Assembly: GCA_964016885.1 (NCBI GenBank)
Contig: OZ024743.1
Location: 301,506,001-301,570,000 of the forward strand
Origin: Eledone cirrhosa
Lineage: Eukaryota
DNA: 64,000 nucleotides
Reading direction: 5' to 3'
The notes under the pieces were generated by a model, which saw only the letters and a list, made by a program, of their open reading frames with translations, was not told the DNA's origin and searched no databases. The position numbers and the translations under genes were made by a program. This document shows positions 2,681 through 64,000 of this stretch, one piece after another (position 1 is the first letter of the stretch; each line of letters opens with the position of its first letter).

Positions 2681-3021
2681 TTCCTGTGTCAGTGTTGAAA
2701 AAAAGTTGACGTGGTTGTCTAAACACTGTACGGTGTAATTCGGGCTGTTTGTTTGTTTACAATCTAACAAACCGAGCATTATAATAAATGTTCGGTAAAT
2801 CTATACGTGCATATATATATGTGTGCATGTATGTATATATATATACTAGTGTACGTCTGTATACATATATGTATGTACGTATACATACATACATAATTAT
2901 ATTTAAGTAAGTGCCGTACTAAGAGTGATAAATGAAATTTCGTTTCATTCTATTCCATTTTTATATATATACATATATATATAATTAGAGTAAACATCAC
3001 GCGCGCCTTATCTCAAAATTA

Positions 3022-3057
3022 TTTTTGAAAAGAATTAGAAATGCGCAACCGGTAAAA
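3022..3057 (+). ncRNA. Variant hammerhead motif (U3-A8, GCAA) in a Neptune-type pLTR fragment (~2990-3155)
   Basis: ttt-TTGAAAA-gaattagaaatgc-GCAA-ccgg-TA-aaa. Same motif at 22201, 37010 and 43933. Confidence 0.5.
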
Positions 3058-3359
3058 ACTTAAAACTAAAACTGAATACTAACCAATACTTATTACTAAA
3101 CTTTATTTTTCCAAAATAAACTATTTTTCACTGGGAACAGTTTGTCAGCACTTTCTCTTATATATATATATATATATATATATTATGATGTTATTTATTT
3201 TGAGAAAAAATAACTTAACATAAGTATGCGCAGTCGGTTACAGCGAGTTTGAACAGAAACAGGTGAGGGAATTCAGGACTGATATCGCCGGTTCAGATGC
3301 TAAAGGGTTAACCCGGTTGACCGCGACTTCGTGTTGGTATATAACCAACACATACTCAA

Positions 3360-3493
<134 letters not shown>

Positions 3494-3993
3494 AGTATAT
3501 TTACCAACATATGCGTACAGGTGTACACTAATGCTAGCAAATACATAAGTTATGTCATAGTACCTAGGTGGTTCAATGCAGGAGGATGGTAATTCTCTAT
3601 ATTTATCTCCAAATAATTTATTTGTTGAGCAAACTTGCCAAATCCACTACTAATCCATTGTAGTGGTAGTAGGCTTTTTTATTATACCAACCCACTCCTT
3701 CTGACTAGCCTCAGTGTCACGTGATTGATTCTTTAGAATCTGCCATTTGACCAGAGATAGTGAACTTTTTCAGTGCAATGGAATTTAGTCCCCGCCAGCT
3801 GTTCCATCCACCGAAGTATTATTTTTATATGAGTCCCTAGTGCCCGCGCATTGCCTGGAGACTTAGCTGAGAATAGACTCCCTGATGACGTAATGAATTC
3901 TCGATGGTTACATTTCGTGTTTCTAACTCCGGAGTAAACAGACCCATCTGCGCACTTCGAGTTGGTATATAACAAACACATACTCAAATGTAT

Positions 3994-4123: not shown

Positions 4124-4197
4124 ACTCCAACTAATTAGTTTCTGTAATGGGATAAAGATAGTTACGAAATGTAACCATCGAGAATTCATTACGTCAT
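4124..4197 (-). ncRNA. Hammerhead motif with ~50-nt stem II, 5' end clipped; 5' half present at 3877-3917 (+)
   Basis: Composite: actcc-CTGATGA-c gtaatg..gatggttac atttc gtaactatc..cattac a-GAAA-ctaattag-TT-ggagt. Confidence 0.6.
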
Positions 4198-4199
4198 TC

Positions 4200-4698
4200 A
4201 TTGTGTTTATATGTGGGTAGAGATGTGTGCTGATGTAGGTATGTATGTTGACGTGTGTATGTTGTGGGTTCGTCTTAGGGAGAAGTGTTTAGACGGGGTC
4301 CGTATTTGTTATTGAAGTAACAAATACATAGGCCAGACCAAAAACAGCCTCCGCCAACGCATGACTGTCCATAGATCCCAAATTAAAATACGGGAATACA
4401 GGAAAATACCACTGAGTGAACACATTGATACCTGTCCCGCCCAAAATCATCCCAACTTCAGAATCTTTCCCCTCTACAAATTTAAAGATAATGCCACCCA
4501 CACCCAGCGCATCAGCAAAGAATCTTACGTCATTAACAAATACGGACCCCGTCTAAACACTTCTCCCTAAGACGAACCCACAACATACACACGTCAACAT
4601 ACATACCTACATCAGCACACATCTCTACCCACATATAAATACAATGACATACGTAAACACACATGCTCTATGGTGCAACACAAACAAATATATGTGTG

Positions 4699-4734
<36 letters not shown>

Positions 4735-4925
4735 TATATATATGTATATATATATAGTGAATATATGTATGTGTATATATATAGTGAATATCATTTCACA
4801 CCTTTTATTGTTAAGATTTTTGATGTTCTATTAAGAGAACCGATTTTACTGAAAAAATCGAATAATGTACACCATTTTACCAGGGGGAAAAAATACTGGT
4901 CCACCCACACACACACACACATTCT

Positions 4926-8897: not shown

Positions 8898-11800
8898 TGG
8901 TCCTGGGTATGACATTAAACTACATCCAGTGGCAAGGCTCCAGTTCGGGAGTTAAGAAGATGTGGGGAATGTGGAGTTAACCCTTAGTTGTCATGACTCC
9001 CAGGTCTGCCCTAGCCCGGGGTGGTAGTACCTGTTAGGGCTCCATTTATGGGTTAAATAACTACCTTATTCGAGTGGCGCCGGTAAGGTATTGTCAGCCA
9101 TTGAAAAGAAATATGGAGAGTCGATCTAACAGCACTAGGGTTAGGGCCCCTAATTACACTGTCAAGGAGCAGCCTGGTCGTTATGACTCTGCTGGCATAG
9201 AGCCACAGAGAGGGCTAGTGGATGATGGATCAGCTGTCTCTGAGACAAATATAAAGAATGCAGTTTTGTCGTGCAGAGGAGCCATCAAAATGGGCACTTT
9301 GAATGTGAGGACTATTCGGACGATGGAGAAGAGAGAGGAGTTGGGACATCTGTTCGAGGAGAATGGTATACAGATACTTTCGATCCAAGAACACACGATT
9401 CTACACGATGAGCCAGTGAGGAGTGTGATGATCAGGAGGGAGAGCCAGCTCATCACTACATCGACAGTGAAGAACACAACAAATGCTGCAGTAGGAGGAG
9501 TGGGCTTTGTGTTCAGTGCAAAAACCAATCTGTTGGTGAGGGAAATAATGCCTATCTCCCCGCAAGTGTTGAGGGTGACCTTCAATGGAAACCCAAGACT
9601 GACAGTCATCTCAGTCTATAGTCCAACCGAGGGGGACAGTGATGTGAATGCGGAAGAGTTCCGTGAGGAGGTGTGTAGAGCTGTCAACACCACTCAGGCA
9701 CACAATATCCTGCTTGTTTTGGGGGACTTCAATGCACATCTGAGTAAGGCGGGCAGTGAAGATCCTTGCTGGTACTTCCATAACAACACCAACCGAAATG
9801 GAAGACTACTGAGAGACACCCTGCTGGAGGCGAACTTGATGGCGACCAACCTAAGGTTTAGGAAGAATCTGGGGAAGATGTGGACCTACATCTCAGATAT
9901 GCACCTGTCCAAGTCCCAGATTGATTTCATTCTGGTGAGGAAAAAGTGGCGGAATAGGGTTCTGAACACGGAACCATACAGCTATTTCAGTACACTGGGT
10001 AGTAACCACCGGCTTGTTATGAGTGAGGTCCGCTGAGCTTAAGAAAGAGCAAGGCTCAGCCACGGAGAACAATCTATGACTGGGGAGCTTTCAAGGAAGA
10101 TGATAAGCTACAGGAGAGGTTCACAGTGGAAGTGAGAAATAGGTTTACTGCTCTGTGTGGAAAGTCAGAGGAGAGAGAGATTGGATGGACTGAGGAGAGT
10201 GTGACGAGGAGGTACTGGCACTTCACCAATGCAGTGGCGGAAGCAAGTGAAACCCTGATGCCGAGGAAAAAGAACAAAGGGAAGCACGTCAGCTCTGCAA
10301 ACCCCAAACTGTGTGCAGCCAGAGAACACCTGAAAGCTGCCAGGGACCAATTTTATGCTGATCCTACGGAGGAGAGGATGGAGACTGTGGAGGTGATGAG
10401 GGAAGAGCTCTGTACCGCTTACACTGAGGTCAGAGAGGAGGCACTGATAGAGAAGATCAGAAGTGTGGAGAGAGCGGTTGATAGATCTGGATGTAAGGAG
10501 AGCTGGATGATCATCAACGAGATCACAGGGAGGAAGAGAATGTGTTCGAGTCAGATCCAGGGAACGGGACCCGAGGATAGGAAGAGGAAATGGCTAGACA
10601 ATTTTAAGAGCCTACTAGGAGAGCCACCCTCCACAGCCTAGAGCACTGGGGAGATCAGGCGGCTGTTTGAGGAACTGGATGTTGAGACAGAGCCCTTCAC
10701 CAGAGAGGAGCTTCAGAGAGCCAAGAAGAAGATCAAGGAGGGCAAGGCTCATGGAGAAGATGGGGTGGCATCAGAGGTGATGAAGAGGTGTGATTTTGAT
10801 GATATCATCCTGGGGTTCTGTAACGGGGCACTGGAGAAAGGAGTTGCCCCGAATCAGTGGAGGATCAGTAACATCGTCCCAGTGCCAAAGAAGGGAGATC
10901 TCTCTAACACCAACAACTACCGGGGGATCTCACTGACGTCACTTGTGGCAAAGACCCTCAACAGGATGATTCTTAACAGGATCCAGCCTGAGATGGAGAA
11001 GCTGAGGGACAACCAGAACGGCTTCAGAGAGGGTAGATCAACCACCAGTCACATCCTATGCTGAGGAGGATATTAGAGGGAGCTAGGGCAAAGTGCCTTC
11101 CTGCGGTCATGGTTTTCATTGACTTTAGGAACGCCTTTGATTCTGTGGACCGTTACTGCCTGATGAAGATATTACAGGCTTATGGAATCCGCAAGAAGAT
11201 AGTGGACCTGATATCACTGCTCTACACCAACACCAAAGCCCAAGTCATTACACCTGATGGGTTGACAGAGTTCTTTGAGATACTGGCTGGAGTGCTCCCG
11301 GGAGATACATTGGCTCCCTAACTTTTTATCATCGTAGTGGACTATTGTATGTGCCTTGCACTGGAGAAACACCAGGACTCTGGCTTTACTGTAGCACCGG
11401 CTCAGAGCAGAAGAGTTAGGGTGAAAAAGGTATCGGATGCTGAATTTGACGACGACATAGTTTTGGTGACAAATACAGTGGAGGAGGCAGAGGATTTGAG
11501 GCGTGAGGTTGAGACTGTGTCGATGAGTGTGGGGCTGAGAATGAATGAGACTAAAACAACATATGTGGTAGAGAATGTTGAGAAGCCAGAGGGGATCACT
11601 AATGTAGGCGGGAAGCCGCTGGAATTGGTTGAGGACTTCCTGTATTTGGGAGCAAAGATTGGGAATACGGAAGATGATGTGGTTGAGAGGAAGAGCAAGG
11701 CCTGGGCGGCGTGCCACAGCTTGAGATCGGTGTGGAAGTCGGACCTTCGTAGAGACCTGAAAATCCGCCTCTTCATTTCTGTAGTGGAGTCTGTGCTGCT

Positions 11801-12060
11801 GTATGGGTCTGAGACTTGGACACTGACCAAGAAACTCACTCAGATGGTGGATGGGTGCTACACGAGAATGCTGAGGATGGCTCTGAAAATTAATCAGTAT
11901 ACAATGAGGATGAAACACTCAGAGCAGTATGGGAGCATCCCAAAAGTCAGCTCAAAAGTGACACAGAGGAGACTGAGGTTGGCTGGACATGCTCACCGAC
12001 ATCCAGAGTTGACATTGCACTCAGTGCTCCTTTGGGAGCCCCTACATGGACACACTAGAA
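8898..12060 (+). mobile_element. RTE-clade LINE (APE endonuclease + reverse transcriptase), decayed and 3'-truncated
   Basis: APE motifs GTLNVRT, IQEH, VYSPT, LGDFNA, QIDFIL. RT motifs NYRGISL, QNGFR, FIDFRNAFDSV, GVLPGDTLAP, EFDDD, FLYLG, LLYGSETW, RLRLAGH. Frameshifts near 10033, 11058 and 11319, and a TAG at 10639 (CAG in the second copy). Single APE-RT ORF. Confidence 0.93.
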
Positions 12061-12255
12061 GAAAATTGCAAACTCGACTGTCACCACATATTATGAACCT
12101 GAAGATTGCGAAAGCATGAAAGTACTCGTTCAATTAACACTTAGAATGTAATATTCTATCATACTATTTCATTATAATACCATTATATATATTTTAAAGG
12201 ATTGTAAATAAAACGAGTAAATCAGACAAAGTTGGAATTCCTCTTATTAATATAA
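12061..12255 (+). mobile_element. PLE pseudo-LTR fragment replacing the LINE 3' end
   Basis: Near-identical to the reverse complement of 17548-17743. Confidence 0.85.
12094..12132 (+). ncRNA. Minimal type I hammerhead ribozyme motif
   Basis: tgaac-CTGAAGA-ttgc gaaa gcat-GAAA-gtac-TC-gttca. 5-bp stem I, palindromic loop III. Confidence 0.88.
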
Positions 12256-18603: not shown

Positions 18604-18720
18604 AGAGGAAATCGAAAATGCTACTGGAGTCTTATTTTTAAAAATATATATATATTTATTTGGTTTCTTTACCGGTCTCACAGATGTGAGAAAAACCACA
18701 GACCCTCCATCTCAACTCTA

Positions 18721-18756
18721 CTTTTGAAAAGCAGAAGAACTGCGAAACAGGTAAAG
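18721..18756 (+). ncRNA. Variant minimal hammerhead motif (U3-A8) in fold-back element ~18600-18890
   Basis: ctt-TTGAAAA-gcag aagaa ctgc-GAAA-cagg-TA-aag. Confidence 0.7.
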
Positions 18757-21781: not shown

Positions 21782-21934
21782 AAATATTTATTAAAATAAC
21801 AGATTAAAGTTTAAGCAAAGAATCGTTGCTTTCACCCTTAACGGGATCTTCTGAAACTAACAAAGTTAGTTTCAGAAGATCCCGTTAAGGGTGAAAGCAG
21901 CGATTCTTTGCTTAAACTTTAGTCTGTTATTTTA

Positions 21935-22089: not shown

Positions 22090-22736
22090 TGGTAAACGGA
22101 CAAGAAAATGCTGAGAAATTGTTCACAGTGAAAAATAGTTTAATTAGGAATAAGTGAGAATTAGTAATAGTATTGTTTAGTATTCAGTTTTGGTTTTAAG
22201 TTTAACCGGTTGCGCATTTCTAATGCTTTTCAAAAATAATTTTGAGATAGAGCGTCCGTGATGTTTGCTCTAATCTGATTAGTTTTGGAAATTATACCTG
22301 TTTTTATGTTAAAAAAGTGGCTCCAGCGGTATTAAAATAAGTTTTGCCCCAATTCGTGTTGCAAAAATTCTTGTGGTCAAAACAATTTTGATTGGTCGGT
22401 AGAGGTTTTTTGAATGTTAAAAATTGATTTTGCAGCAAATGTAGGTTTGTGTCGTCTGATTGAGAAGTCACTGAAAAATAAGTCTTTCAAAACAAATATG
22501 TGTGTGTGTGTAGTAGTAGTAAAGAGATTCGTTGTTGTGATAAGGTCAGCAGGGATGTGTGTGCGAACCGCAGCCTGTTGACAGTTCAAATGCCTATTAA
22601 GACAAGTGTGTGTGTGTGTGTGTGTGTAGCAGAGTAATTCGTGGTAGAGGGATGGTCAGTAGGAATGTGTCTGTAAGTGTGTGGGGGATATTTTAACAGG
22701 TTAAAATATATTTTTCAGCCCTTGTCTTATACGGAG

Positions 22737-22769
<33 letters not shown>

Positions 22770-25015
22770 TCATTGTATGTTAATGTACGCGTGTGTATGT
22801 GTGTGTGTGTATATATGTGCGTGTGTGCGCATACACGTGTGTGTGTGTGTGAGAATGCGTGTGTGGGGGGGGGGGGGACCAGTAATTATTGTTTGTGGTA
22901 CTGGTGAAATGGTGTACATTATTCGATATTTTCAGTAAAATCGATTCTCTCAATAGAACATCAAAAACCTTAATAATAAAAGGTGTGAATGATATATAGT
23001 ATTGGCATAATACCAAGGTGTGTGTGAGTGTGTCTAGATTGTACGTACTGCAAGGGGAATCCATTAGGCCTTGCGGTATTGGAATACATGTGTACAAATA
23101 AGTAACTGGAGTGTGTCAAGAAATTGTATACATGTGTACAAATTATATAGTTGTGTACAAATGGTACACATGTATCTGGAGTGCGTCCAGATTGTACGTA
23201 TTGCAAAGGGAATCCATTAGGCCTTGCCGTATTGGAATACTTGTGTACAAATATGTATGTGCCCATCAGTGTGCAATGTGTGCGTTTATGTATGTGTGTG
23301 TGTCGGCACGTTTGTATTTATAGACATCAAAAGGTATGCAAATTTGTGTATATTTTTGTTGCACCATAGAACATGTGTGTTTACGTATGTCATTGTGTTT
23401 ATATGTGGGTAGAGATGTATGCTGATGTAGGTATGTATTTTGACGTGTGTATGTTGTGGGTTTGTCTTAGGGAGAAGTGTTTAGACGGGGTCCGTATTTG
23501 TTAATAAAGTAAGATTCCTTGCTGATGCGCTGGGTGTGGGTGGCATTATCTTTAAATTTGTAGAAGGGAAATATTCTGAAGTTGGGATGATTTTGGGCGG
23601 CACAGGTATCAATGTGTCCACTCAGTGATATTTTCCTGTATTCCCGTATTTTAATTTTGGATCTATGGACAGCCAGGCATTGGCGGAGGCTGTTTTTGGT
23701 CTGGCCTATGTATTGTTCTCGACAACCTGAGCAAGTTAATACATATATTAGATTTTCTGATGCGCATGTGAAATTGTGTTTTACTATAAAACGTTGTCCT
23801 TCTTTGAAATAGAATTCCGAACCCTCTATTAGGTTAATTCATATGCCACAGTTGGGTGTATCGCATTTTTTTTACTGTGGGTTTCGTTGTTGTGGTTGGC
23901 AGTACTTTGGCATGTGTTAGGATGTTTTTCATTGACTTAGATTGTCTTTTGCTCTTTATGATATCGTGTGTTCGTAGGATTTGGTTCATTCTATGGCCAT
24001 TTTTCAACACAGAGATGTTCTGGAGCATGGTGTCAAAGGCCTCATTGTTGAGGAGGTTGTGTGTAGAGATGTATGGAACAGCTTTTAGTTTCGGTTGACT
24101 TAATTTAGGGTGTCTAAGGTCCTCGGTACTGAGTTTTACGGCACGTTGGATTCCATTGGCAATTAATAATGCAGGGTAGTCCCTGCCCATGAGTGTATCC
24201 TTTAGTTCTTGTAGCCGTAAGTAGCAGGTGTTTTTATTGGATACTATAGTACAGATTCTCTTGGCTAAGTTGTAGGGAATATTAATTTTAACGTATCTAC
24301 GGTGGCAAGAGTTGAAAGGAAGATATTGCTTGGCGTCTGTAGGCTTGTGGTATATGTCTGTTTGTATTTTTTTGTTATGGATGTTAATGAGGATGTCGAA
24401 GAAGGGGAGTTGTTGATGGTTGTATTCCATCGTGAAGTTAATATTCGTGTTGAGCCCATTTATAAGGGTCTGAAATTCTTTAAGTTTCTCGATATTTTCG
24501 TGCCAAAGGATGAAGCAGTCATCTAGATATCGCTTCCAGTTCCTTTCTATGTGTAAGTAGAGAGTGTTTCCAAATTTGTTTCGGACTTTAGGGTAGTGGG
24601 TGATTTCCAGGTATCCCATGACTAGGTTGGCATAAGCGGGGCTGTTTTCGTTCCCATAGCGGTCCCAGCTTTCTGCCTGTAGGGTTTGTTATTGAAAACG
24701 AAGTAATTGTTATCCAAGATAAATTTGAGTCCCTCTATCACGAATTCTTTTTTGATGCGTTGTGGGAGTTCATTGGGGTAATTATCCAGCCATAATTGGA
24801 TAGCTTCTATTCCTAGGTTGTGGGGTATGTTGGAGTATAGGTTGACTACATCGAACGTCACTAGTAGGGTTTGTTCAGAAAGGTGCATATCTTGAGCATA
24901 TCTAAGTCGTCCCTTATATAGCTTTTGGTGTGTTTGAGAAAAGGCTTGAGAAGGGTATCAATGAAGTTGCTAAGGCGGTGGGTTTCGCAAGCGGGGCCTG
25001 CTATGATAGGTCTTA
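22090..25015 (-). mobile_element. Neptune-type Penelope-like element, 5'-truncated and decayed (coding remnant 23467-25015; 3' UTR/pLTR 22090-23466)
   Basis: RPIIAGP, TFDVVNLYSNIP, GTAMGT, WKRYLDD, LPFFD, YHKPTD..YLPFNSCH. Cys-rich linker, then NLIYVLTCSGC..YIGQT GIY-YIG. (TA)n on both sides. Confidence 0.93.
22201..22236 (-). ncRNA. Variant hammerhead motif (U3-A8, GCAA)
   Basis: Reverse complement ttt-TTGAAAA-gcat tagaa atgc-GCAA-ccgg-TT-aaa. Confidence 0.55.
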
Positions 25016-25217
25016 ATTATATGTTATATATATATATATATATATATATATAACAGCAAAAGGGATATTATATTTGTTGGTAATTCAACAAATGTATATG
25101 TTTATAACTGAATCGTAGCACTCAACAGTTTTTGTGGAGTATAATATGTATCTGATGAGGGCGTACCAAAGTTTTGTTACCCTTGAAATAAATATACTTT
25201 CCATTTATTAGTATCAT

Positions 25218-29158: not shown

Positions 29159-29194
29159 CTTTACCGGTTTCGCAGTTCTTCTGCTTTTCAAAAG
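29159..29194 (-). ncRNA. Variant minimal hammerhead motif (U3-A8)
   Basis: Reverse complement ctt-TTGAAAA-gcag aagaa ctgc-GAAA-ccgg-TA-aag. Confidence 0.75.
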
Positions 29195-36962: not shown

Positions 36963-37009
36963 ATACATATATTGCTAGCAAACATCACAAGCGCTCTATC
37001 TCAAAATTA

Positions 37010-37045
37010 TTTTTGAAAAGCATTAGAAATGCGCAACCGGTGAAA
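37010..37045 (+). ncRNA. Variant hammerhead motif (U3-A8, GCAA), triplet mutated to GUG
   Basis: Inside Neptune-type pLTR fragment ~36976-37185. Confidence 0.45.
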
Positions 37046-37184
37046 ACTTTAAACTAATACTGAATACTAACCAATACTTATTACTAATTTATACTTATTC
37101 CTAATTAAACTATTTTTCACTGGAACACATTTGTCACCATTTTCTTTTCCTTTTACTAATATATCACAACTCGTGTGTTGCACC

Positions 37185-37243
<59 letters not shown>

Positions 37244-41684: not shown

Positions 41685-41721
41685 CTTTTAGAAAAGCAGA
41701 AGAACTGCGAAACCGGTAAAT
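41685..41721 (+). ncRNA. U3-A8 hammerhead family copy with a 1-nt insertion in the core
   Basis: cttttagaaaa-gcagaagaactgc-GAAA-ccgg-TA-aat, within repeat ~41650-41858. Confidence 0.45.
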
Positions 41722-43084: not shown

Positions 43085-43539
43085 TACATCAGCACACATC
43101 TCTACCCACATATAAACACAATCACATACGTAAACACACATGTTCTATGGTGGAACACAAAAAAAAAATATATATATATATAGTGAATATATATATATAT
43201 ATATAGTGAATATCATTTCACACCTTTTATTATTAAGGTGTTTGATGTTCTATTGAGAGTATCGATTTTAATGAAAATATCGAATAATGTACACTATTTT
43301 ACCAGGGAAAAAAATACTGGTCCACCCACACGCTCACACACACACATTCTCACACACACACACACACACATACACACGCGTACATTAGCATACAAAGAGA
43401 CATACACACACACATACACACACACATACATTTCTCCGTATAAGACAAGAGCTGAAAAATATCTTTTAACATGTTAAAATATCCCCACACACTTACAAAC
43501 ACATTCCTACTGACCATCCCTCTACCACGAATTACTCTG

Positions 43540-43576
<37 letters not shown>

Positions 43577-44112
43577 TCTTAATAGGCATTTGAACTGTCA
43601 ACAGGCTGCGATTCGCACCCACATCCCTGCTAACCATGATCACAACAACGAACACTTTACTACTACTACTACATACACACACATATTTGTTGTGAAAGAG
43701 TCATTTCTCAGTCAGCCGACACAAACCTACATTTGGCGCAAAATCAATTTGTTACATTCACATGACCTCTACCGACCAATCAACATTGTTTTGACCACAA
43801 GAATGTTTGCAACACGAATTGGCGCAAACCTATTTAATACAGCTGGAGCCACTTTTTTAACATAAAAACAGGTAGAATTCCCAAAACTAATCAGATCAGA
43901 GCAAACATCACGGACGCTCTATCTCAAAATTATTTTTGAAAAGCATTAGAAATGCGCAACCGGTAAAACTTGAAACCAAAACTGAATACTCACCAATACA
44001 ATTACTAATTCTCACTTATTCCCAATTAAACTATTTTTCACTGTGAACAATTTGTCAGCATTTTCTATTCCGTTTACCAATATATCATAACTTGTGTGTT
44101 ACACCTTTATTC
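43085..44112 (+). mobile_element. 3' UTR/pLTR of the Neptune-type family
   Basis: Colinear with the reverse complement of 22090-23430. Confidence 0.9.
43933..43968 (+). ncRNA. Variant hammerhead motif (U3-A8, GCAA)
   Basis: ttt-TTGAAAA-gcat tagaa atgc-GCAA-ccgg-TA-aaa. Confidence 0.6.
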
Positions 44113-44149
44113 TTTTAAAAAAAAAAAATATATATATATATACAAGGTC

Positions 44150-51238: not shown

Positions 51239-52067
51239 CATATATATGTATATGTGTATATATATACACATAGACTAGAGTATGTATGTATATATGTGTG
51301 TGTATATACGTGTGTATATAAAGATAAGTTGAGTATAAAAATGTATACACATGAACGCGTATGTATGTACATGAATACATGTGTGTATATATATATGTAT
51401 GCATGTGTATATGTATGTAAGTATGAACATGTTACTATGTGAATGTGAGTATATGTATTTTGTAGAGGTGTGCAAATATGTTTGTGTGTGAATGCGTGGG
51501 TGAAAGGATACGTACACTTGAAAGAAAAAATTAAGTCTGAATCTTAATTAAGTGCAAACACAAAACCAACCACGCATATCTTTACTATCTCTAATCCTTC
51601 TATAGATTTAGAAAAATAACCAATAATATATTCTATAAAAATGTCAAAACAACAGATGGGAATCTAATTACTCACTGCCACCAACAATTCTCACTGCTAT
51701 CAAAATACCACTCCCTCAACTATTCTTCTAACAACTTCACCCATCCCTCCTAATATTCTCTATAAAAACCAAACAGGTCCTCAATAATATTATTCTGATG
51801 AAATGACAGTAAATAATTACATTGAAATATTGATGTCTGCATAACTAATACTTTGTAGATAGCAGCTGTTTTCAGGTTATGTAACTGTTATAGAAACACG
51901 TGTCAATAAATTCCATTCAACTAAACTGTATCCATTCAAATCTTTCTATTTTTCTCCGGATTACTTTTGGAACTTCAACTGGAACCGTCGAGCAAACTCT
52001 ACGTGAGCTGTCAATCTACTGTGTGTAATATTTATATTACAACACAACAGAAAATACTGTTTATATA

Positions 52068-52911
<844 letters not shown>

Positions 52912-53258: not shown

Positions 53259-53745
53259 AGAAGAAGTTTATTATGAAATGGAAATGCGGGTATAAAGAAT
53301 TTATTAGGTAACAATTTTGTTTTAAATGCATATAATGTTACCTTTTTTCACCACCGTTTGCAAATTTCTGTTTTATATGTTTATACACAAGATATGGCTT
53401 TCTATAATAATAGTACTAAACACTGTTTTCTGGACTCCTTTAGAAATAACCTGCTACTATAATAGCCCCAATAACTTGTCTGTATCTCTGTACCACTTTG
53501 ACCCCTTTAACTAAATTTTGTCCGAACAACACCAATAGAAGAATTTTCTACACCCGCCAACCCTAACACGCCTCATTAAGCTAACTGCTGCAAAAACATT
53601 CTCTCCCTACAATATCTACTAGTCTGACAGTCTTAAATCCTAAGAGTCCCTCCACCTTACTCACTTCCCTCTTCCCCTTCTCTTCCTACCTCCTTCTTTA
53701 TCTTTTATCTAGTGTATAAAATATTTTCATATCATTCGAATACAA

Positions 53746-53862
53746 AGGTCTGACGACATGGTGTGTTTGCTTACAGTGTACCTTCGGTTTATGATAATAT
53801 TTTTATATTATTCAAATAGCGAGGTATAGGTAACCCATACACTATAGAAACAATTGTTACCT
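53746..53862 (+). ncRNA. Type I hammerhead motif with 90-nt stem II (5' pLTR)
   Basis: aggt-CTGACGA-c atggtgtgt..ttac..tgtaccttcg..ataatat tttt atattat..cgaggtata..gtaa..atacactat a-GAAA-caattg-TT-acct. Confidence 0.82.
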
Positions 53863-54069
53863 AATAAATTCTTTATACCCGCATTTCCATTTCATAAACT
53901 TCTTCTCCATATTTTCTCCGGATTTTAAAACACACTTTATTATACGTTGAGCAATCTCTGACGTCGGTTGACTCCATCCAATACAACTACTTAGTAACAT
54001 TGGAATACAAATTTACTAATTCTTCACACTCCTTTACAGTCGAGCAACCTATCAACATACGTTTCTGAA

Positions 54070-56352
54070 ATGGAAAAACATCATTGTGGTATGTCCTTAA
54101 AAAACATACCCATTCAGGGTAAAAAAGAATACATTCTTGGTATGATACAAAGGACCAACGAATTTATTCGGCGGATTAGATGGAGGGCCTTCCACTTCGA
54201 TAGGAAAAGGATTACACAAACTTCCGACACCACCAACGATAAGTTTGGTTTCAAATCCTACAAAAACCCACCCTCTAACCCTCTTTTGGATTCTTTCGAA
54301 CAGGACTTAATGAAAATGATAACCGGAATCAAATTTACAAACGGAAGGAAAAACGAACTGCAACGAGATATTAAAACTCTACTCGACAACCTGAGGAATA
54401 CCAAAGGAATTATCATAAAGGCAGACAAAACATCGAATCTATACACCCTGGATGTAGAAACATATAATCATTTTATACGTAAGGAATTACGTAGGAAGTA
54501 CAAAAAAACAAACGCAACTACACTAACCAACATTAATAACGCAGCATGTGATATTGTTAAGAAACTGAAAATGGACGACAGAACGGTACCCCTATCTCTA
54601 GCTACACCGACTTTTAATGTGAAGGACCATAAGGATAACTTCGATACTAACCCTAAAATTAGATTAATATGTCCTTCAAAGTCCGATATAGGTAGAATCA
54701 GTAAGTACATATTAGATCGTATTATCCCCCAAGTTAAGGCTAAGCTAGATATTAAATTATGGGGTAATACTCAACAGGCAATAATATGGTTCAATAACAT
54801 TAGGGACAAAAACAAATCTTCTTTTATTCAATTCGATATAGATGAATACTATTCCTCTATTTCACCCGAAACCCTGCATAAGGCCCTCTCTTTTTCTAAG
54901 ACTAACTCGGACCTCACAAACGAGGAAATTAATATTATACTTGAAGCTAGACGCACAGTAGTGCACTTTGAAAATAGTTATTGGGTCCGCAGAGATAGAC
55001 CCTCGGAATTCTACATTACGATGGGTTCTAATGATTCGGCGGAGGTCACGGATCTGGTTGGGATCTATATAGCCCACAGACTCCAGAGCGAATTTAGAGA
55101 CCTCCACGGCGGAATATACCGCGACGATACACTTCTATTAGTCAAGAATATGAACAAACAAAACCTAGAAAGGCGACGTAAAAACATTAGGAAACTTTTC
55201 TTAGAACTAGGGCTTAATATTACCTTCGAACAAAATCTTAAGGTGGTCAACTTCTTGGATGTCACCTTCAACCTTAATAACGGTAATATAGAGCCATTTC
55301 ACAAACTTAATGAAAATCTCAAGTACGTTAATGTAAAATCGAACCATCCCCATTCCATTATTAAATCTATCCCTAAAAATATACCCACAAGGATCTCCCG
55401 ACTGTAGTCTAATTTGCAGACCTTCAACGAGCATGCTGAATATTATAATGACGCACTTAGAAAAGCTGGTTACTGCGAGAAAATAGAATATCTAGACGAT
55501 AACCACATAAGTACTATGAATAAAACACATCTAAGTCGAACTAGTATTGCACCACACACACACATCAATAGGCATACTAATAGGTGCAAACCAGCAAATA
55601 GAGTCAGACGTAGAGAGTACATATGGTATAACCCCGTGTACAATACTTCAATTAGCACTAAGATTATCTCACAATCCTATACACTAATCAATAAACACTT
55701 TACAACTTCACATAAATACTATAAAATCTTTAACTCGCGTACAATTAGACTCTCATACTCCACTGCACCTAACATAGAACAACTAATTAAAAAACTCAAC
55801 TCAGCAATACTAAATAAGTACATCCCTAATGACTCAGCGCACCAGCATTGCAACGTACAACGCACTAACACGCAACTACAACCCCACCAAACTATCCAGG
55901 ATTCTATTGCAAAACATAAAACTAATTGTAACTGCACCAAACCAGGTACGTGCCCACTGAATAACCAGTGCCTAGCACGCAATATTGTCTACCGATGTAC
56001 AATAAATTCCGGAACCAACAGATGGTATTACGTCGGATGTACCGCAACTTCTTTCAAGGCTCGCCTATACCAACATCGATCTTCGATCAGGCACGAGAAA
56101 ATGCGCTCCGTAACAACCCTCGCCGATAAAGCCTGGCAGCTCCGGAGGAGCAATCAAGCATTCTCCCTTGATCGGCAAATTATTGCAGCTGCGCCTGCAT
56201 ATAAGCAAAATCATCGATTCTGCAAATTATGCAATTTGGAGATATACTGCATTTTAACGTCGGTAAACAAACGTTTGAACAGCAAAATTGAACGTTCACT
56301 ATACTGTAACCATCGTTTGAAAACGACTTTTTCTTTTTTTAAATGCATATAA
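54070..56352 (+). CDS. PLE polyprotein (reverse transcriptase + C-terminal GIY-YIG endonuclease), ~760 codons, one in-frame TAG at 55405-55407
   Basis: ORFs 54070-55407 and 55414-56352 share a frame. SLKNIP, RRIRWRA, KADKT, IQFDIDEYYSSI, ITMGS, GIYRDD, NFLDVTFNL, IWYNP, CNC-x5-CPLNNQC, IVY..YVG.T..FK.R..H, CKLCNLE, LNSKIE..CNH. Confidence 0.93.
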
Positions 56353-56763
56353 TGTTACCTTTTTACACCACCGTTTGCAAATATCTGTTTTATACGTTTA
56401 TACACAAGATATGGCTTTTCTATAATAATAGTACTAAACACTGTTTTCTGGACCCCTTTAGAAATACCCTGCTACTATAATATCCCCAACAACTTCTCTG
56501 TAACTCTGTACCACTTTGACCCCTTTAACTAAATTTTGTCCGGACAACACCAATAGAAGAATTTACTTCCCCCGCCAACCCTAACACGCCTCATTAAGCT
56601 AACTGCTGCCAAAACATTCTCTCTTTACAATCTCTACTAGTCTGAGAGTCTTAAATCCTAGGACTCCCTCCACCTTACTCACTTCCCTCTTCCCCTTCTC
56701 TTCCTACCTCCTTCTTTCCCTTTTATCTAGTGTATAAAATATTTTCATATCATTCCAATACAA

Positions 56764-56880
56764 AGGTCTGACGACATGGTATGTTTGCTTACAGTGTACC
56801 TTCGGTTTATGATAATATTTTTATATTATTTAAATAGCGAGGTATAGGTAACCTATACACTATAGAAACAATTGTTACCT
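56764..56880 (+). ncRNA. Type I hammerhead motif with 90-nt stem II (3' pLTR)
   Basis: Same layout as 53746-53862. Confidence 0.8.
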
Positions 56881-57034
56881 AATAAATTCTTGATACCCGC
56901 ATTTCCATTTCATAAACTTCTTCTCCATATTTTCTCCGGATTTTAAAACACACTTTATTATACGTTGAGCAATCTCCGACGTCTGTTGACTCCATCCAAT
57001 GCAACTACTTAGTAACATTGGAATACAAATTTAC

Positions 57035-57075
<41 letters not shown>

Positions 57076-59932: not shown

Positions 59933-61111
59933 ATATTGTTATATTTGGGGAGGGTCATATTTGCGTAATATTGCCAGAATTAATAACAGAACACACTCAC
60001 TGTTTGGTTGGTTTTCGCTTCTCGCTGTCTTTTATATATATATATCTGCGATCTAACTTACTCGGTCCTCAATGTTGCCATTGACTGACCGGCGGTCAAA
60101 AATAATACAGATACAATATAGACAAACACATATATATATAGTTTACATAAATCTTTCGTTGCACATCTGCAACATCGTCAGTGGTGTTATATTCATTGTT
60201 CCTCCTGTTGTGTTGTATGTCTACGCCATTTTTTTTTTTGTTCAGTCTGTCTATATATTTATTTATTTATTTGCTTGTTTGTTTATCTTATTTTATTTTG
60301 TCTTCTTTGCGCATGCGTTTGCGTGTGTGTATAGTGTTATGTGTGATGTGTGACTAGTGTGTATAGTGTTGTGTCTGCTGGGTGACTAGTGTGTGTTTAT
60401 GTGCTTGTGTATGTATTTATTTATCTTATTTTATTTAATTTAATTTACTTATTTATTTATACTTCTCTTAGGTCAGTGTTGTTTGTTTGGGTGTTGTTGT
60501 TGTTCCACTCATTCTTTCTGTTTAGCTAAACAGAAAGAATGAGTGGAACAACAACAACACCCAAACAAACAACACTGACCTAAGAGAAGTATAAATAAAT
60601 AAGTAAATTAAATTAAATAAAATAAGATAAATAAATACATACACAAGCACATAAACACACACTAGTCACCCAGCAGACACAACACTATACACACTAGTCA
60701 CACATCACACATAACACTATACACACACGCAAACGCATGCGCAAAGAAGACAAAATAAAATAAGATAAACAAACAAGCAAATAAATAAATAAATATATAG
60801 ACAGACTGAACAAAAAAAAAAAATGGCGTAGACATACAACACAACAGGAGGAACAATGAATATAACACCACTGACGATGTTGCAGATGTGCAACGAAAGA
60901 TTTATGTAAACTATATATATATGTGTTTGTCTATATTGTATCTGTATTATTTTTGACCGCCGGTCAGTCAATGGCAACATTGAGGACCGAGTAAGTTAGA
61001 TCGCAGATATATATATATAAAAGACAGCGAGAAGCGAAAACCAACCAAACAGTGAGTGTGTTCTGTTATTAATTCTGGCAATATTACGCAAATATGACCC
61101 TCCCCAAATAT

Positions 61112-61301: not shown

Positions 61302-61669
61302 GAGAGAAAAGATGAATATTAAATGAAAGTGTTTTTATAAAGGAATTTATTAGGTATTGACATATGTTTCTCTAACAGACGGAATACCTATTATTGCTGC
61401 TTGCGTAATCATATAATGTTACCAAGTATTCGATCGCAAATGTATAATCAGTTGTCACTTCTTCAGAGCTATTGGGTAAATTGGAAAAAAATCAGAAACA
61501 TTAAAGTAGTTATATTAGTTGTAAGAAAGGAAGAAGTGAAGGGATAGTATATGACAGATGGCAATTCAATTTGCTTGTAAACAAGTATATAGAAGGTTTT
61601 TAATGAGAATACAATGAGTATATGGCTTATTTTATCTAAATAAGAATTTTTTGGAGTGCCTATTTTAAT

Positions 61670-64000
61670 CTTTACATCCAAAACTGTCAACCGCTCTCTC
61701 CACACTTCTGATCTTCTCTATCAGTGCCTCCTCTCTGACCTTAGTGTAAGCGGTACAGAGCTCTTCCCTCATCACCTCCACAGTCTCCATCCTCTCCTCC
61801 GTACGATCAGCATAGAATTGGTCCCTGGCAGCTTTCAGGTGTTCTCTGGCTGCACACACTTTTGGGTTTGCAGAGCTGACGTGGTTCCCTTTGTTCTTTT
61901 TCCTCGGCACCATGGTTTCACTTGCTTTAGCCACTGCATTTGTGAAATGCCGGTACCTCCTCGTCACACTCTCCTCAGTCCATCCAATCTCTCTCTCCTC
62001 TGACTCTCCACACAGAGCAGTAAACCTGTTTCTCACTTCCACTGTGAACCTCTCCTGTAGCATATCATCTTCCTTGAAAGCTCCCCAGTCATAGATTGTT
62101 CTCCGGGGCTGAGCCTTGCTCTTTCTTAAGCTCACGCGGACCTCACTCATAACAAGCCGGTGGTCACTACCCAGTGTACTGAAATAGCTGTATGGTTCCG
62201 TGTTCAGAACACTATTCCGCCACTTTTTCCTCACCAGAATGAAATCAATCTGGGACATGGACAGGTGCATATCTGAGATGTAGGTCCACATCTTCCCCAG
62301 ATTATTCCTAAACCTTAGGTTGGTCGCCATCAAGTTCGCCTCCAGCAGGGTGTCTCTCAGTAGTCTTCCATTTCGGTTGGTGTTGTTATGGAAGTACCAG
62401 CAAGGATCTTCACTGCCCTCCTTACTCAGATGTGCATTGAAGTCCCCCAAAACAAGCAGGATATTGTGTGCCTGAGTGGTGTTGACAGCTCTACAGACCT
62501 CCTCATGGAACTCCTCGGCATTCACATCACTGTCCCCCTCGGTTGGACTATAGTCTGAGATGACTGTCAGTCTTGGGTTTCCATTGAAGGTCACCCTCAA
62601 CACTCGCGGGGAGATAGGCATTATTTCCCTCACCTATCTGTATACCACTCTCCTCAAACAGCTGGATAATCATCAACGAGATCACAGGGCGGAAGAAAAG
62701 GTGTTCGAGTCAGATCCAGGGTACGGGGCCCGAGGATAGGAAGAGGAAATGGCTAGATCATTTTAGGACCCTACTAGGAGAGCCACCCTCCACAGCCCAG
62801 AGCACTGGGGAGATCAGGCGGCTGTTTGAGGAACTGGATGTTGAGACAGAGCCCTTCACCAGAGAGGAGCTTCAGAGAGCCAAGAAGAAGATCAAGGAGG
62901 GCAAGGCTCATGGAGAAGATGGAGTGGCATCAGAGGTGATGAAGAGGTGTGATTTTGATGATATCATCCTGGGGTTCTGTAACGGGTCACTGGAGAAAGG
63001 AGTTGCCCCGAATCAGTGGAGGATCAGTAACATCGTCCCAGTGCCAAAGAAGGGAGATCTCTCTAACACCAACAACTACCGGGGGATCTCACTGACGTCA
63101 CTTGTGGCAAAGACCCTCAACAGGATGATTCTTAACAGGATCCAGTCTGAGATGGAGAAGAAGCTCAGGGACAACCAGAACGGCTTCAGAGAGGGTAGAT
63201 CAACCACCAGTCACATCCTGATGCTGAGGAGGATATTAGAGGGAGCTAGAGCAAAGTGCCTTCCTGCGGTCATGGTTTTCATTGACTTTAGGAAGGCCTT
63301 TGATTCTGTGGACCGTTACTGCCTGATGAACATCTTACAGGCTTATGGAATCCCCAAGAGGATAGTGGACCTGATATCACTGCTCTACACCAACACCAAA
63401 GCCCAAGTCATTACACCTGATGGGATGACAGAGTTATTTGAGATACTGGCTGGAGTGCTCCAGGGAGATACATTGGCTCCCTACCTTTTTATCATCGTAG
63501 TGGACTATTGTATGCGCCTTGCACTGGAGAAACACCAGGACTCTGGCTTTACTGTAGCACCGGCTCAGAGCAGGAGAGTTGGGGCGAAAAAGGTATCGGA
63601 TGCTGAATTTGCCGACGACATAGTTTTGGTGACAAATACAGTGAAGGAGGCAGAGGATTTGATGCGGGAGGTTGAGACTGTGTCGATGAGTGTGGGGCTG
63701 AGAATGAATGAGACTAAAACAAAATATCTGGTAGAGAATGTTGAGAAGCCAGAGGGGTTCACTAATGTAGGCGGGAAGCCGCTGGAATTGGTTGAGGACT
63801 TCCTGTATTTGGGAGCAAAGATTGGGAATACGGAAGATGATGTGGTTGAGAGGAAGAGCAAGGCCTGGGTGGCGTGTCACAGCTTGAGATCGGTGTGGAA
63901 GTCGGACCTTCGTAGAGACCTGAAAATCCGCATATTCATTGCTGTAGTGGAGTCTGTGCTATTGTATGGGTCTGAGACTTGGACACTGACCAATAGACTC
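61670..64000 (+). mobile_element. Second RTE-clade LINE copy with inverted 5' part (61670-62659 minus, APE; 62660-64000 plus, RT), running off the window
   Basis: Highly similar to 9352-11830. LGDFNA and SDHRLV on minus. NYRGISL, DFRKAFDSV, GVLQGDTLAP, EFADD and FLYLG on plus. Confidence 0.95.

What the first reader, a model, noticed from the sequence alone, without database searches (positions are those of the whole stretch)
22201..22236. Triple-variant hammerhead (U3, A8, GCAA) conserved in four copies of an autonomous Neptune-type pLTR
Seen: ttt-TTGAAAA-gcattagaaatgc-GCAA-ccgg-TH-aaa at 3022, 22201, 37010 and 43933, with only single-base differences. It sits near the pLTR end, and I found no canonical motif elsewhere in that UTR. 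All four keep C at position 13. Inference: the element transposed with this core, so either a strongly non-canonical ribozyme works, or the structure is kept for a non-catalytic role such as RT recognition or dimerisation.
Basis: partly seen in the sequence, partly recalled or inferred. Interest (0 to 1): 0.7.

Follow-up and report, generated by a model that had tools for sequence, protein, structure and literature searches.

The report
Hammerhead core mutant in active retrotransposon
A jumping gene with about 12,000 copies in this animal genome carries a hammerhead-type self-cutting RNA motif in which a normally fixed core base (A13) is replaced by C, so it likely cuts slowly or not at all while the element keeps spreading, and a related family in the same genome with the normal base offers a natural control for asking what these ribozymes are for.

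Summary
The motif is real; the 22201 copy is on the minus strand. It is the minimal type I hammerhead of a Penelope-like element with a CX4CxxC linker (Neptune/Nematis type). U3-A8 is published and shared by related families here, so only A13C is new: one unusual change, not three. C13 is fixed in a lineage of 11,807 pattern matches with four successive subfamilies and intact 784-aa ORFs elsewhere. The four window copies are truncated and not autonomous. A second lineage (14,971 matches, three copies in this window) and further families keep GAAA, with covarying stems. No canonical hammerhead lies elsewhere in a full-length copy. About half of the copies in both lineages end just upstream of the motif, and neither shows a clear excess of ends at the cut site, so uncut RNA is what gets copied. 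Core and stems stayed unchanged across subfamilies (0/31 vs 27/156 flank columns). Best reading: a strongly attenuated or silent hammerhead kept as a structure, because cleavage is not needed for insertion. No cleavage or RNA data. The scan earlier noted a UUGAAAA core in another genome, without A13C.

The parts
22201..22236 (-). Minimal type I hammerhead homologue: stem I 5' arm 22236-22234, U3 22233, A8 22228, stem II 22226-22214, G12 22213, C13 22212, palindrome 22210-22205, N17 22204, stem I 3' arm 22203-22201
22230..22245 (-). Predicted 6-bp hairpin that pairs U3-A6 and two stem I bases with upstream sequence (would block the active fold); unchanged in four subfamily majorities
   Evidence: prediction only
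22090..25016 (-). 5'-truncated, frameshifted Penelope-like element copy between (TA)n tracts, with ~1.4 kb 3' UTR/pLTR
23467..25016 (-). ORF2 remnant (residues ~266-784): RT, CX4CxxC linker with a stop at the last Cys, GIY-YIG endonuclease
2984..3156 (+). Short pLTR-end copy (motif 3022-3057), 5' end at the family hotspot, stem II damaged
36977..37190 (+). Short pLTR-end copy (motif 37010-37045, G17), 5' end at the hotspot, carries most of the 3' tail
43085..44120 (+). 3' UTR-only copy (motif 43933-43968) with full 3' tail; 5' limit approximate
18721..18756 (+). Hammerhead of the related GAAA lineage (U3-A8, A13), one stem III change
29159..29194 (-). Hammerhead of the related GAAA lineage, intact core
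41685..41721 (+). Hammerhead of the related GAAA lineage, one base inserted in the core

Best explanation
This is the inherited pLTR hammerhead motif of an endonuclease-bearing Penelope-like element whose founder fixed an A13C core change, which likely left it strongly attenuated or silent, with its hairpins and palindrome likely kept for a structural role. Shown: homology to PLE minimal hammerheads, lineage-wide C13, continued amplification in four subfamilies, intact ORFs in the youngest. Inferred: transcripts start about 45 nt upstream of U3; the ORF2 protein primes reverse transcription internally about 160-200 nt downstream of U3 and copies straight across the uncut motif, so cleavage is not on the insertion path and its loss costs little. 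Predicted: a 6-bp upstream hairpin ties up U3-A6, stem I is only three A-U pairs, and two RNAs pair through the ACCGGU palindrome; this dimer or RNP scaffold would be what selection still keeps.
For: A13 is kept in 15 of 18 motifs compared, the 3 exceptions being this lineage, in 3 of 4 outgroup 3' UTRs inspected, the fourth being too short, and as GAAA throughout the Cervera Fig. S3 alignment text. A13 mutation costs 10-100-fold (PMC4075628, citing earlier work). No revertant subfamily: the first 100 of 158 non-C copies are T 49, A 36, G 15 (hand count). The lineage is young: median divergence 0.7-4.1% in 10-36 copies per subfamily, with uninterrupted ORF2 frames of 768 aa or more in 17 of 18 loci that were picked for long ORFs or a tandem array. 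5' ends cluster 30-50 nt upstream of U3 in 48 of 100 GCAA copies and 47 of 100 GAAA copies. At the predicted cut site GCAA has 8 junctions against 7 at a same-sequence control position; all hand counts. Hammerhead mutants do not affect insertion by Anolis PAc in vitro (PMC11167929). Core and stems 0/31 variable against 27/156 flank columns, Fisher p=0.005. Blocked fold favoured by ~7 kcal/mol per monomer in GCAA, about equal in the young GAAA lineage.
Against: No cleavage or RNA data. The end maps look alike in the GAAA lineage, so they say nothing specific about C13; there the cut site has 13 junctions against 8, 9 and 10 at neighbouring positions, a slight rise I cannot call a peak. In longer context U3-A6 is also predicted paired in canonical relatives (0.39-0.95 against 0.93-0.97), so the 'lock' contrast is weak, and folding z-scores are not significant (-0.6 to -1.75). 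All other core bases stayed intact, which fits residual catalysis. The conserved block was chosen after viewing the alignment and may be promoter DNA.
Confidence: 0.5

Rival explanations
1. It is a slow but working ribozyme: a protein-assisted dimeric hammerhead that tolerates C13, perhaps helped by the U3-A8 background, and cleavage is still selected (for processing tandem transcripts or for translation).
For: G5, A6, U3-A8, A9, G12, A14, A15.1-U16.1 and A17 are unchanged through four subfamilies. A13 is among the milder core positions (10-100-fold). PAc hammerhead cleaves only with its protein (PMC11167929). Natural core variants with low activity exist (A6C, U13a; PMC3088659). The two loop II changes add a pair or stabilise stem II.
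Against: A13 is invariant in every other family sampled. Stem I is the weakest possible, three A-U pairs, with predicted probability 0.0. There is no excess of ends at the cut site. PLE minimal hammerheads are already very slow with an intact core (PMC4209133).
Confidence: 0.3
2. It is a neutral relic: dead since A13C, with no RNA role; the block looks conserved because it overlaps the internal promoter or simply has not yet mutated in the few master copies.
For: The conserved block extends 16 nt upstream of stem I and lies just downstream of the inferred start site. Only four masters are compared. Naiad PLEs proliferate without canonical hammerheads (PMC8557442).
Against: 0/31 against 27/156 variable columns (p=0.005); the only changes fall in loop II and preserve the hairpin.
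Confidence: 0.2

Closest known systems
Minimal type I hammerheads of metazoan Penelope-like elements (Cervera & De la Pena 2014, PMC4209133), incl. the U3-A8 variant of Schistosoma mansoni
   Same: pLTR location, short stem I, G10.1-C11.1, palindromic stem III implying dimer action, UUGAAAA box (S. mansoni family 4 in Fig. S3)
   Different: C instead of A at position 13; no extra base between A9 and stem II; stem I only three A-U pairs
PAc Poseidon hammerhead of Anolis (Frangieh et al. 2024, PMC11167929)
   Same: Motif upstream of two 3' end points about 41 nt apart (tail); uncut RNA appears to be the template; (TA)n/AT-rich targets
   Different: PAc has a canonical C3-G8 core overlapping the ORF start and was shown to cleave with protein; here the core is altered, lies ~220 nt upstream of ORF1, and is untested
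Natural hammerhead core variants (Perreault et al. 2011, PMC3088659)
   Same: U3-A8 covariation; rare tolerated core changes with low activity
   Different: The passages read list A6C, insertions (A6a, U13a) and U15.1-A16.1, not an A13 substitution
Neptune/Nematis EN+ PLEs (Craig et al. 2021, PMC8557442)
   Same: RT then CX2-5CxxC linker then C-terminal GIY-YIG with CCHH; (TA)n targets; tandem and inverted pLTR structures
   Different: That paper calls canonical hammerheads universal in these clades; this lineage has a non-canonical one only

Membership tests
PLE minimal type I hammerhead | Located in the pLTR of a PLE, sense strand | tested here: met
   ~1 kb downstream of ORF2 and ~220 nt upstream of ORF1 in tandem copies
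PLE minimal type I hammerhead | Stems I and II with covariation | tested here: met
   18 motifs: pair I.1 18/18, I.2 18/18 (3 types), II.1 18/18, II.2 17/18, II.3 18/18, II.4 17/18; related sequences, not independent events
PLE minimal type I hammerhead | Palindromic stem III for dimers | tested here: met
   ACCGGU; predicted duplex probability 0.66-0.95
Hammerhead ribozyme (consensus core) | 3-8 base pair, U4, G5, A6, A9, G12, A14, A15.1-U16.1, H17 | tested here: met
   U3-A8, A17 in the family majority
Hammerhead ribozyme (consensus core) | A13 | tested here: not met
   C13 in about 99% of lineage copies; filed as a homologue/variant, not as a consensus hammerhead
Hammerhead ribozyme (consensus core) | Site-specific self-cleavage | not testable with these tools
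   No RNA run listed; genomic end maps show no peak in this lineage and no clear one in the control
EN+ Penelope-like element | RT plus C-terminal GIY-YIG with CCHH, pLTRs, tail | tested here: met
   Pfam RVT_1 and GIY-YIG above cut-off; ends at +161 and +202 from U3
Neptune clade | CX2-5CxxC linker between RT and EN | tested here: met
   CX4CxxC in intact ORF2; shared with Nematis
Neptune clade | RT phylogeny with named Neptune references, apart from Nematis | not tested
   Tree (quick method, 46 rows) had no named Neptune or Nematis references
Autonomous element | Intact ORFs in the copy | tested here: not met
   All four window copies truncated or broken; intact ORFs seen only elsewhere, in the youngest subfamily

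The most novel reading that the evidence does not exclude
The C13 motif cleaves at a useful rate as a protein-assisted dimer: a natural, active A13-substituted hammerhead, rescued by its U3-A8 background or by the element's protein, and switched by an upstream hairpin that hides the UUGA box until the protein binds.
Probability: 0.15. Interest if true: 0.75.

Novelty: new variant of a known kind. Interest (0 to 1): 0.45.

Why it matters
What PLE hammerheads do is stated to be unclear (PMC8557442). Here one genome holds two recently active, similarly built lineages whose motifs are nearly identical but differ at an otherwise invariant core base. That is a ready-made natural pair for testing whether cleavage matters to the element. 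If C13 is silent, a high-copy lineage shows that catalysis can be dropped while the fold is kept. If it cleaves, search descriptors that demand GAAA miss whole families.

Tried and rejected
Rfam: no ribozyme family among the 150 of 224 window matches shown or the 20 matches on a full-length copy; it does not report the minimal motif itself, so this is weak. Alternative register using the GAAA inside loop II: rejected by inspection, it gives no 10.1-11.1 or 15.1-16.1 pair. Metagenome pattern scan: 80 loci examined of at least 121, 19 with a short stem by chance, none with both stems and none with a PLE ORF. Viral contigs: no relatives. A repeated GGAA match lies inside a Tc1/mariner-type transposase frame (family name from my own knowledge of the WPPSSPDCNPLD motif) and lacks stem I: rejected. 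Swapping base 13 in silico changes no predicted fold. Sequencing runs: no RNA holder listed; two contig sets of unknown kind show no listed alternative letter at 22212 but may be the source sample. Novelty searches: 'hammerhead ribozyme'+'A13C' 0 papers; hammerhead+A13+A14+G12+mutation 4 papers. Not held, so not seen: Lunse et al. 2017 (about 150,000 PLE-linked variants, recalled; it could list A13 changes), Martick & Scott 2006, Nelson & Uhlenbeck 2008, Przybilski & Hammann 2007, Scott 2013. Cervera supplement file 1 could not be searched. The Roberts 2023 per-mutant values were not read (supplements only listed). bioRxiv supplements are closed. No intermediate lineage with A13 and the long hairpin was found, so the order of the changes is unknown.

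Full report
Observation. The motif lies at 3022(+), 22201-22236(-), 37010(+) and 43933(+), each with C at hammerhead position 13 (C13 is base 22212). The copies carry private decay: G17 at 37010, a broken stem II pair at 3022, U17 at 22201 where the family has A17. The same scan found three copies of a related motif with canonical GAAA at 18724(+), 41688(+) and 29162(-).

The element. The 22201 motif sits ~110 nt from the 3' end of a minus-strand Penelope-like copy (22090-25016) between (TA)n tracts. Its ORF2 remnant begins at residue ~266, has three frame breaks and a stop in the RT-EN linker. The other three copies are 3' UTR only. The family is autonomous elsewhere. A search with the endonuclease listed many 784-aa frames among 150 scored matches. 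Of 18 loci fetched for their long frames or tandem array, 17 hold an uninterrupted ORF2 frame of 768 aa or more; the 784-aa ORF2 has RVT_1, a CX4CxxC linker and GIY-YIG, and an ORF1 overlaps it upstream. All their motifs have GCAA (17 of 18 loci showed one). The linker fits Neptune or Nematis (PMC8557442); my tree had no named references. The nearest named proteins are molluscan, including Octopus bimaculoides at 58%, so the host is probably a cephalopod (inference).

How fixed is C13. In the 3.0-Gb genome the U3-A8 pattern with GCAA has 11,807 exact matches (control 0) and with GAAA 14,971 (control 2). In the GCAT stem background only 158 matches lack C13; the first 100 are T 49, A 36, G 15 by hand count, i.e. 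scattered decay and no revertant subfamily. I split 83 distinct GCAA-lineage ends into four subfamilies, with median divergence from their majority of 3.4, 4.1, 1.4 and 0.7% after dropping truncated rows (17, 10, 36 and 17 rows used). C13 therefore predates several amplification waves.

Relatives. The GAAA lineage also has intact 775-aa ORF2 copies, 55.6% identical to the GCAA ORF2, with the same layout. It is not the immediate sister in the quick tree, yet its motif differs at only a few bases. A pattern that excluded both lineages gave 318 matches (control 24), mostly further families with UUGAYAA cores, CCGG palindromes and GAAA; PLE ORF pieces were seen next to 4 of the 32 loci fetched. 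Among 18 hand-picked motifs (17 from this genome, one outgroup), stems I and II covary, 17 have U3-A8, and only the three GCAA subfamilies lack A13. Outgroup elements from host DNA in MAGs have GAAA in 3 of 4 3' UTRs inspected. So the structure is a true hammerhead homologue, U3-A8 is ancestral in this group, and A13C is derived. A relaxed scan found no canonical core in a full-length GCAA element or the window copy and found both in a GAAA control.

Genomic footprints of the RNA (hand counts of the first 100 listed matches, which come from the start of the assembly and are not a random sample). In the GCAA lineage 48 copies end 56-78 nt from the palindrome end (30-50 nt upstream of U3), none at 19-55, 4 at 17-18, and 48 run on. 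The GAAA lineage gives 47 at the same place, 4 nearer and 49 running on. I read this as the transcript 5' end; an RT stop is an alternative. Copies end at +161 or +202 from U3, matching the two-start 'tail' of PMC11167929. Junctions just downstream of the palindrome are rare (159 and 285 genome-wide). At the predicted cut site GCAA has 8 against 7 at the same-sequence position one repeat unit away, and GAAA has 13 against 8, 9 and 10 nearby. Uncut RNA is thus the template in both lineages. This agrees with the PAc result but does not measure the effect of C13.

Constraint after A13C. Across the four subfamily majorities 0 of 31 core and stem columns vary against 27 of 156 flank columns (one-sided Fisher p=0.005; an 8-nt duplication and a 1-nt deletion next to stem I not counted; block chosen after viewing the data). 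The two loop II changes extend or stabilise stem II. Fourfold sites of ORF2 differ at 14 of 161 between the window copy and a young copy.

Folding. All GCAA subfamilies have UCAAAA upstream, predicted to pair with UUUUGA and hide U3-A6 (probability 0.97-0.99; blocked -6.1 to -6.8 against open +0.4 to +1.1 kcal/mol). In the young GAAA lineage the two folds are about equal (-5.0 against -5.8). In longer context the contrast shrinks, since canonical relatives also show U3-A6 paired at 0.39-0.95. These models lack tertiary energy, so this is a hint only.

Literature seen. PMC4209133: parts 1-2 of 4 of the text and part 2 of supplement file 2 (U3-A8 in ~1,300 Schistosoma motifs; low activity; consensus GAAA). 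PMC11167929, PMC3088659, PMC4075628, PMC2837043, PMC3907566, PMC6765202, PMC9901934, PMC13725137, PMC13282606 and bioRxiv 10.64898/2026.07.22.740005: passages only. PMC8557442: introduction and passages. A13 changes appear there only as sporadic copies (two of 198 cricket satellite sequences, PMC2837043) or as a 10-100-fold loss (PMC4075628, second-hand). I found no report of a family-fixed A13C, but the largest PLE variant survey (Lunse 2017) was not available.

Verdict. A real, lineage-fixed core variant of a known PLE hammerhead. Most likely it is attenuated or silent and kept as a structure (0.5); a slow working ribozyme (0.3) and a neutral relic (0.2) remain open. It is interesting mainly as a natural paired test of an open question.

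Noticed in passing
L044 minus strand ~3930-3945; L239 ~3950-3965: ORF2 overlaps ORF1 in the -1 frame in both lineages, with a conserved T-TTT-TTA heptamer (ORF1 'HFLD'): a likely -1 ribosomal frameshift site. Craig 2021 Fig. 1 legend mentions frameshifted ORF1 in some PLEs.
   Followed up: partly
GCAA versus GAAA lineage motifs (e.g. window 22201-22245 and 18709-18756): The hammerhead block, including loop II AAGAA and an upstream ATCTCAA, is nearly identical between lineages whose ORF2 are 56% identical and not sisters in the tree: strong constraint or an exchange of pLTR ends.
   Followed up: partly
G000: About half of the listed copies in both lineages are 170-250 nt pLTR minis ending at one hotspot, often as head-to-head pairs ~110 nt apart.
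   Followed up: partly
G000, (L245-L276): Several further hammerhead families with UUGAYAA cores and ACCGGU palindromes; U3-A8 seems the rule in this PLE group.
   Followed up: partly
window 3022-43968: The window holds 3 exact matches of a pattern expected about 0.09 times per 64 kb (4,156 in 3.0 Gb): a local cluster of PLE insertions in (TA)n-rich DNA.
   Followed up: no
window 4189-4905: A fifth fragment of the GCAA family (endonuclease end, 96% aa identity, partly inverted) without the hammerhead end.
   Followed up: no
window 9038-12119 (+) and 61665-64000: Two ~96% identical copies of a LINE with AP endonuclease and RT; the second is split into inverted pieces.
   Followed up: no
window 52149-52400, 60486-60565, 21823-21903: Long near-perfect inverted repeats, probably foldback or MITE-like insertions; the Rfam miRNA matches are below cut-off.
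   Followed up: no
window 53998-56352 (+): Long frames with a weak match to PLE RT (24% identity, E 3e-6), flanked by a 705-bp direct repeat (53317-54020 / 56334-57038): possibly a distant Penelope-like element with pLTRs. A CTGATGA-type candidate at 51795 was not examined.
   Followed up: no
L200-L214: Penelope-like elements, most likely host-animal DNA, sit inside bacterial MAG records in the GTDB collection.
   Followed up: partly
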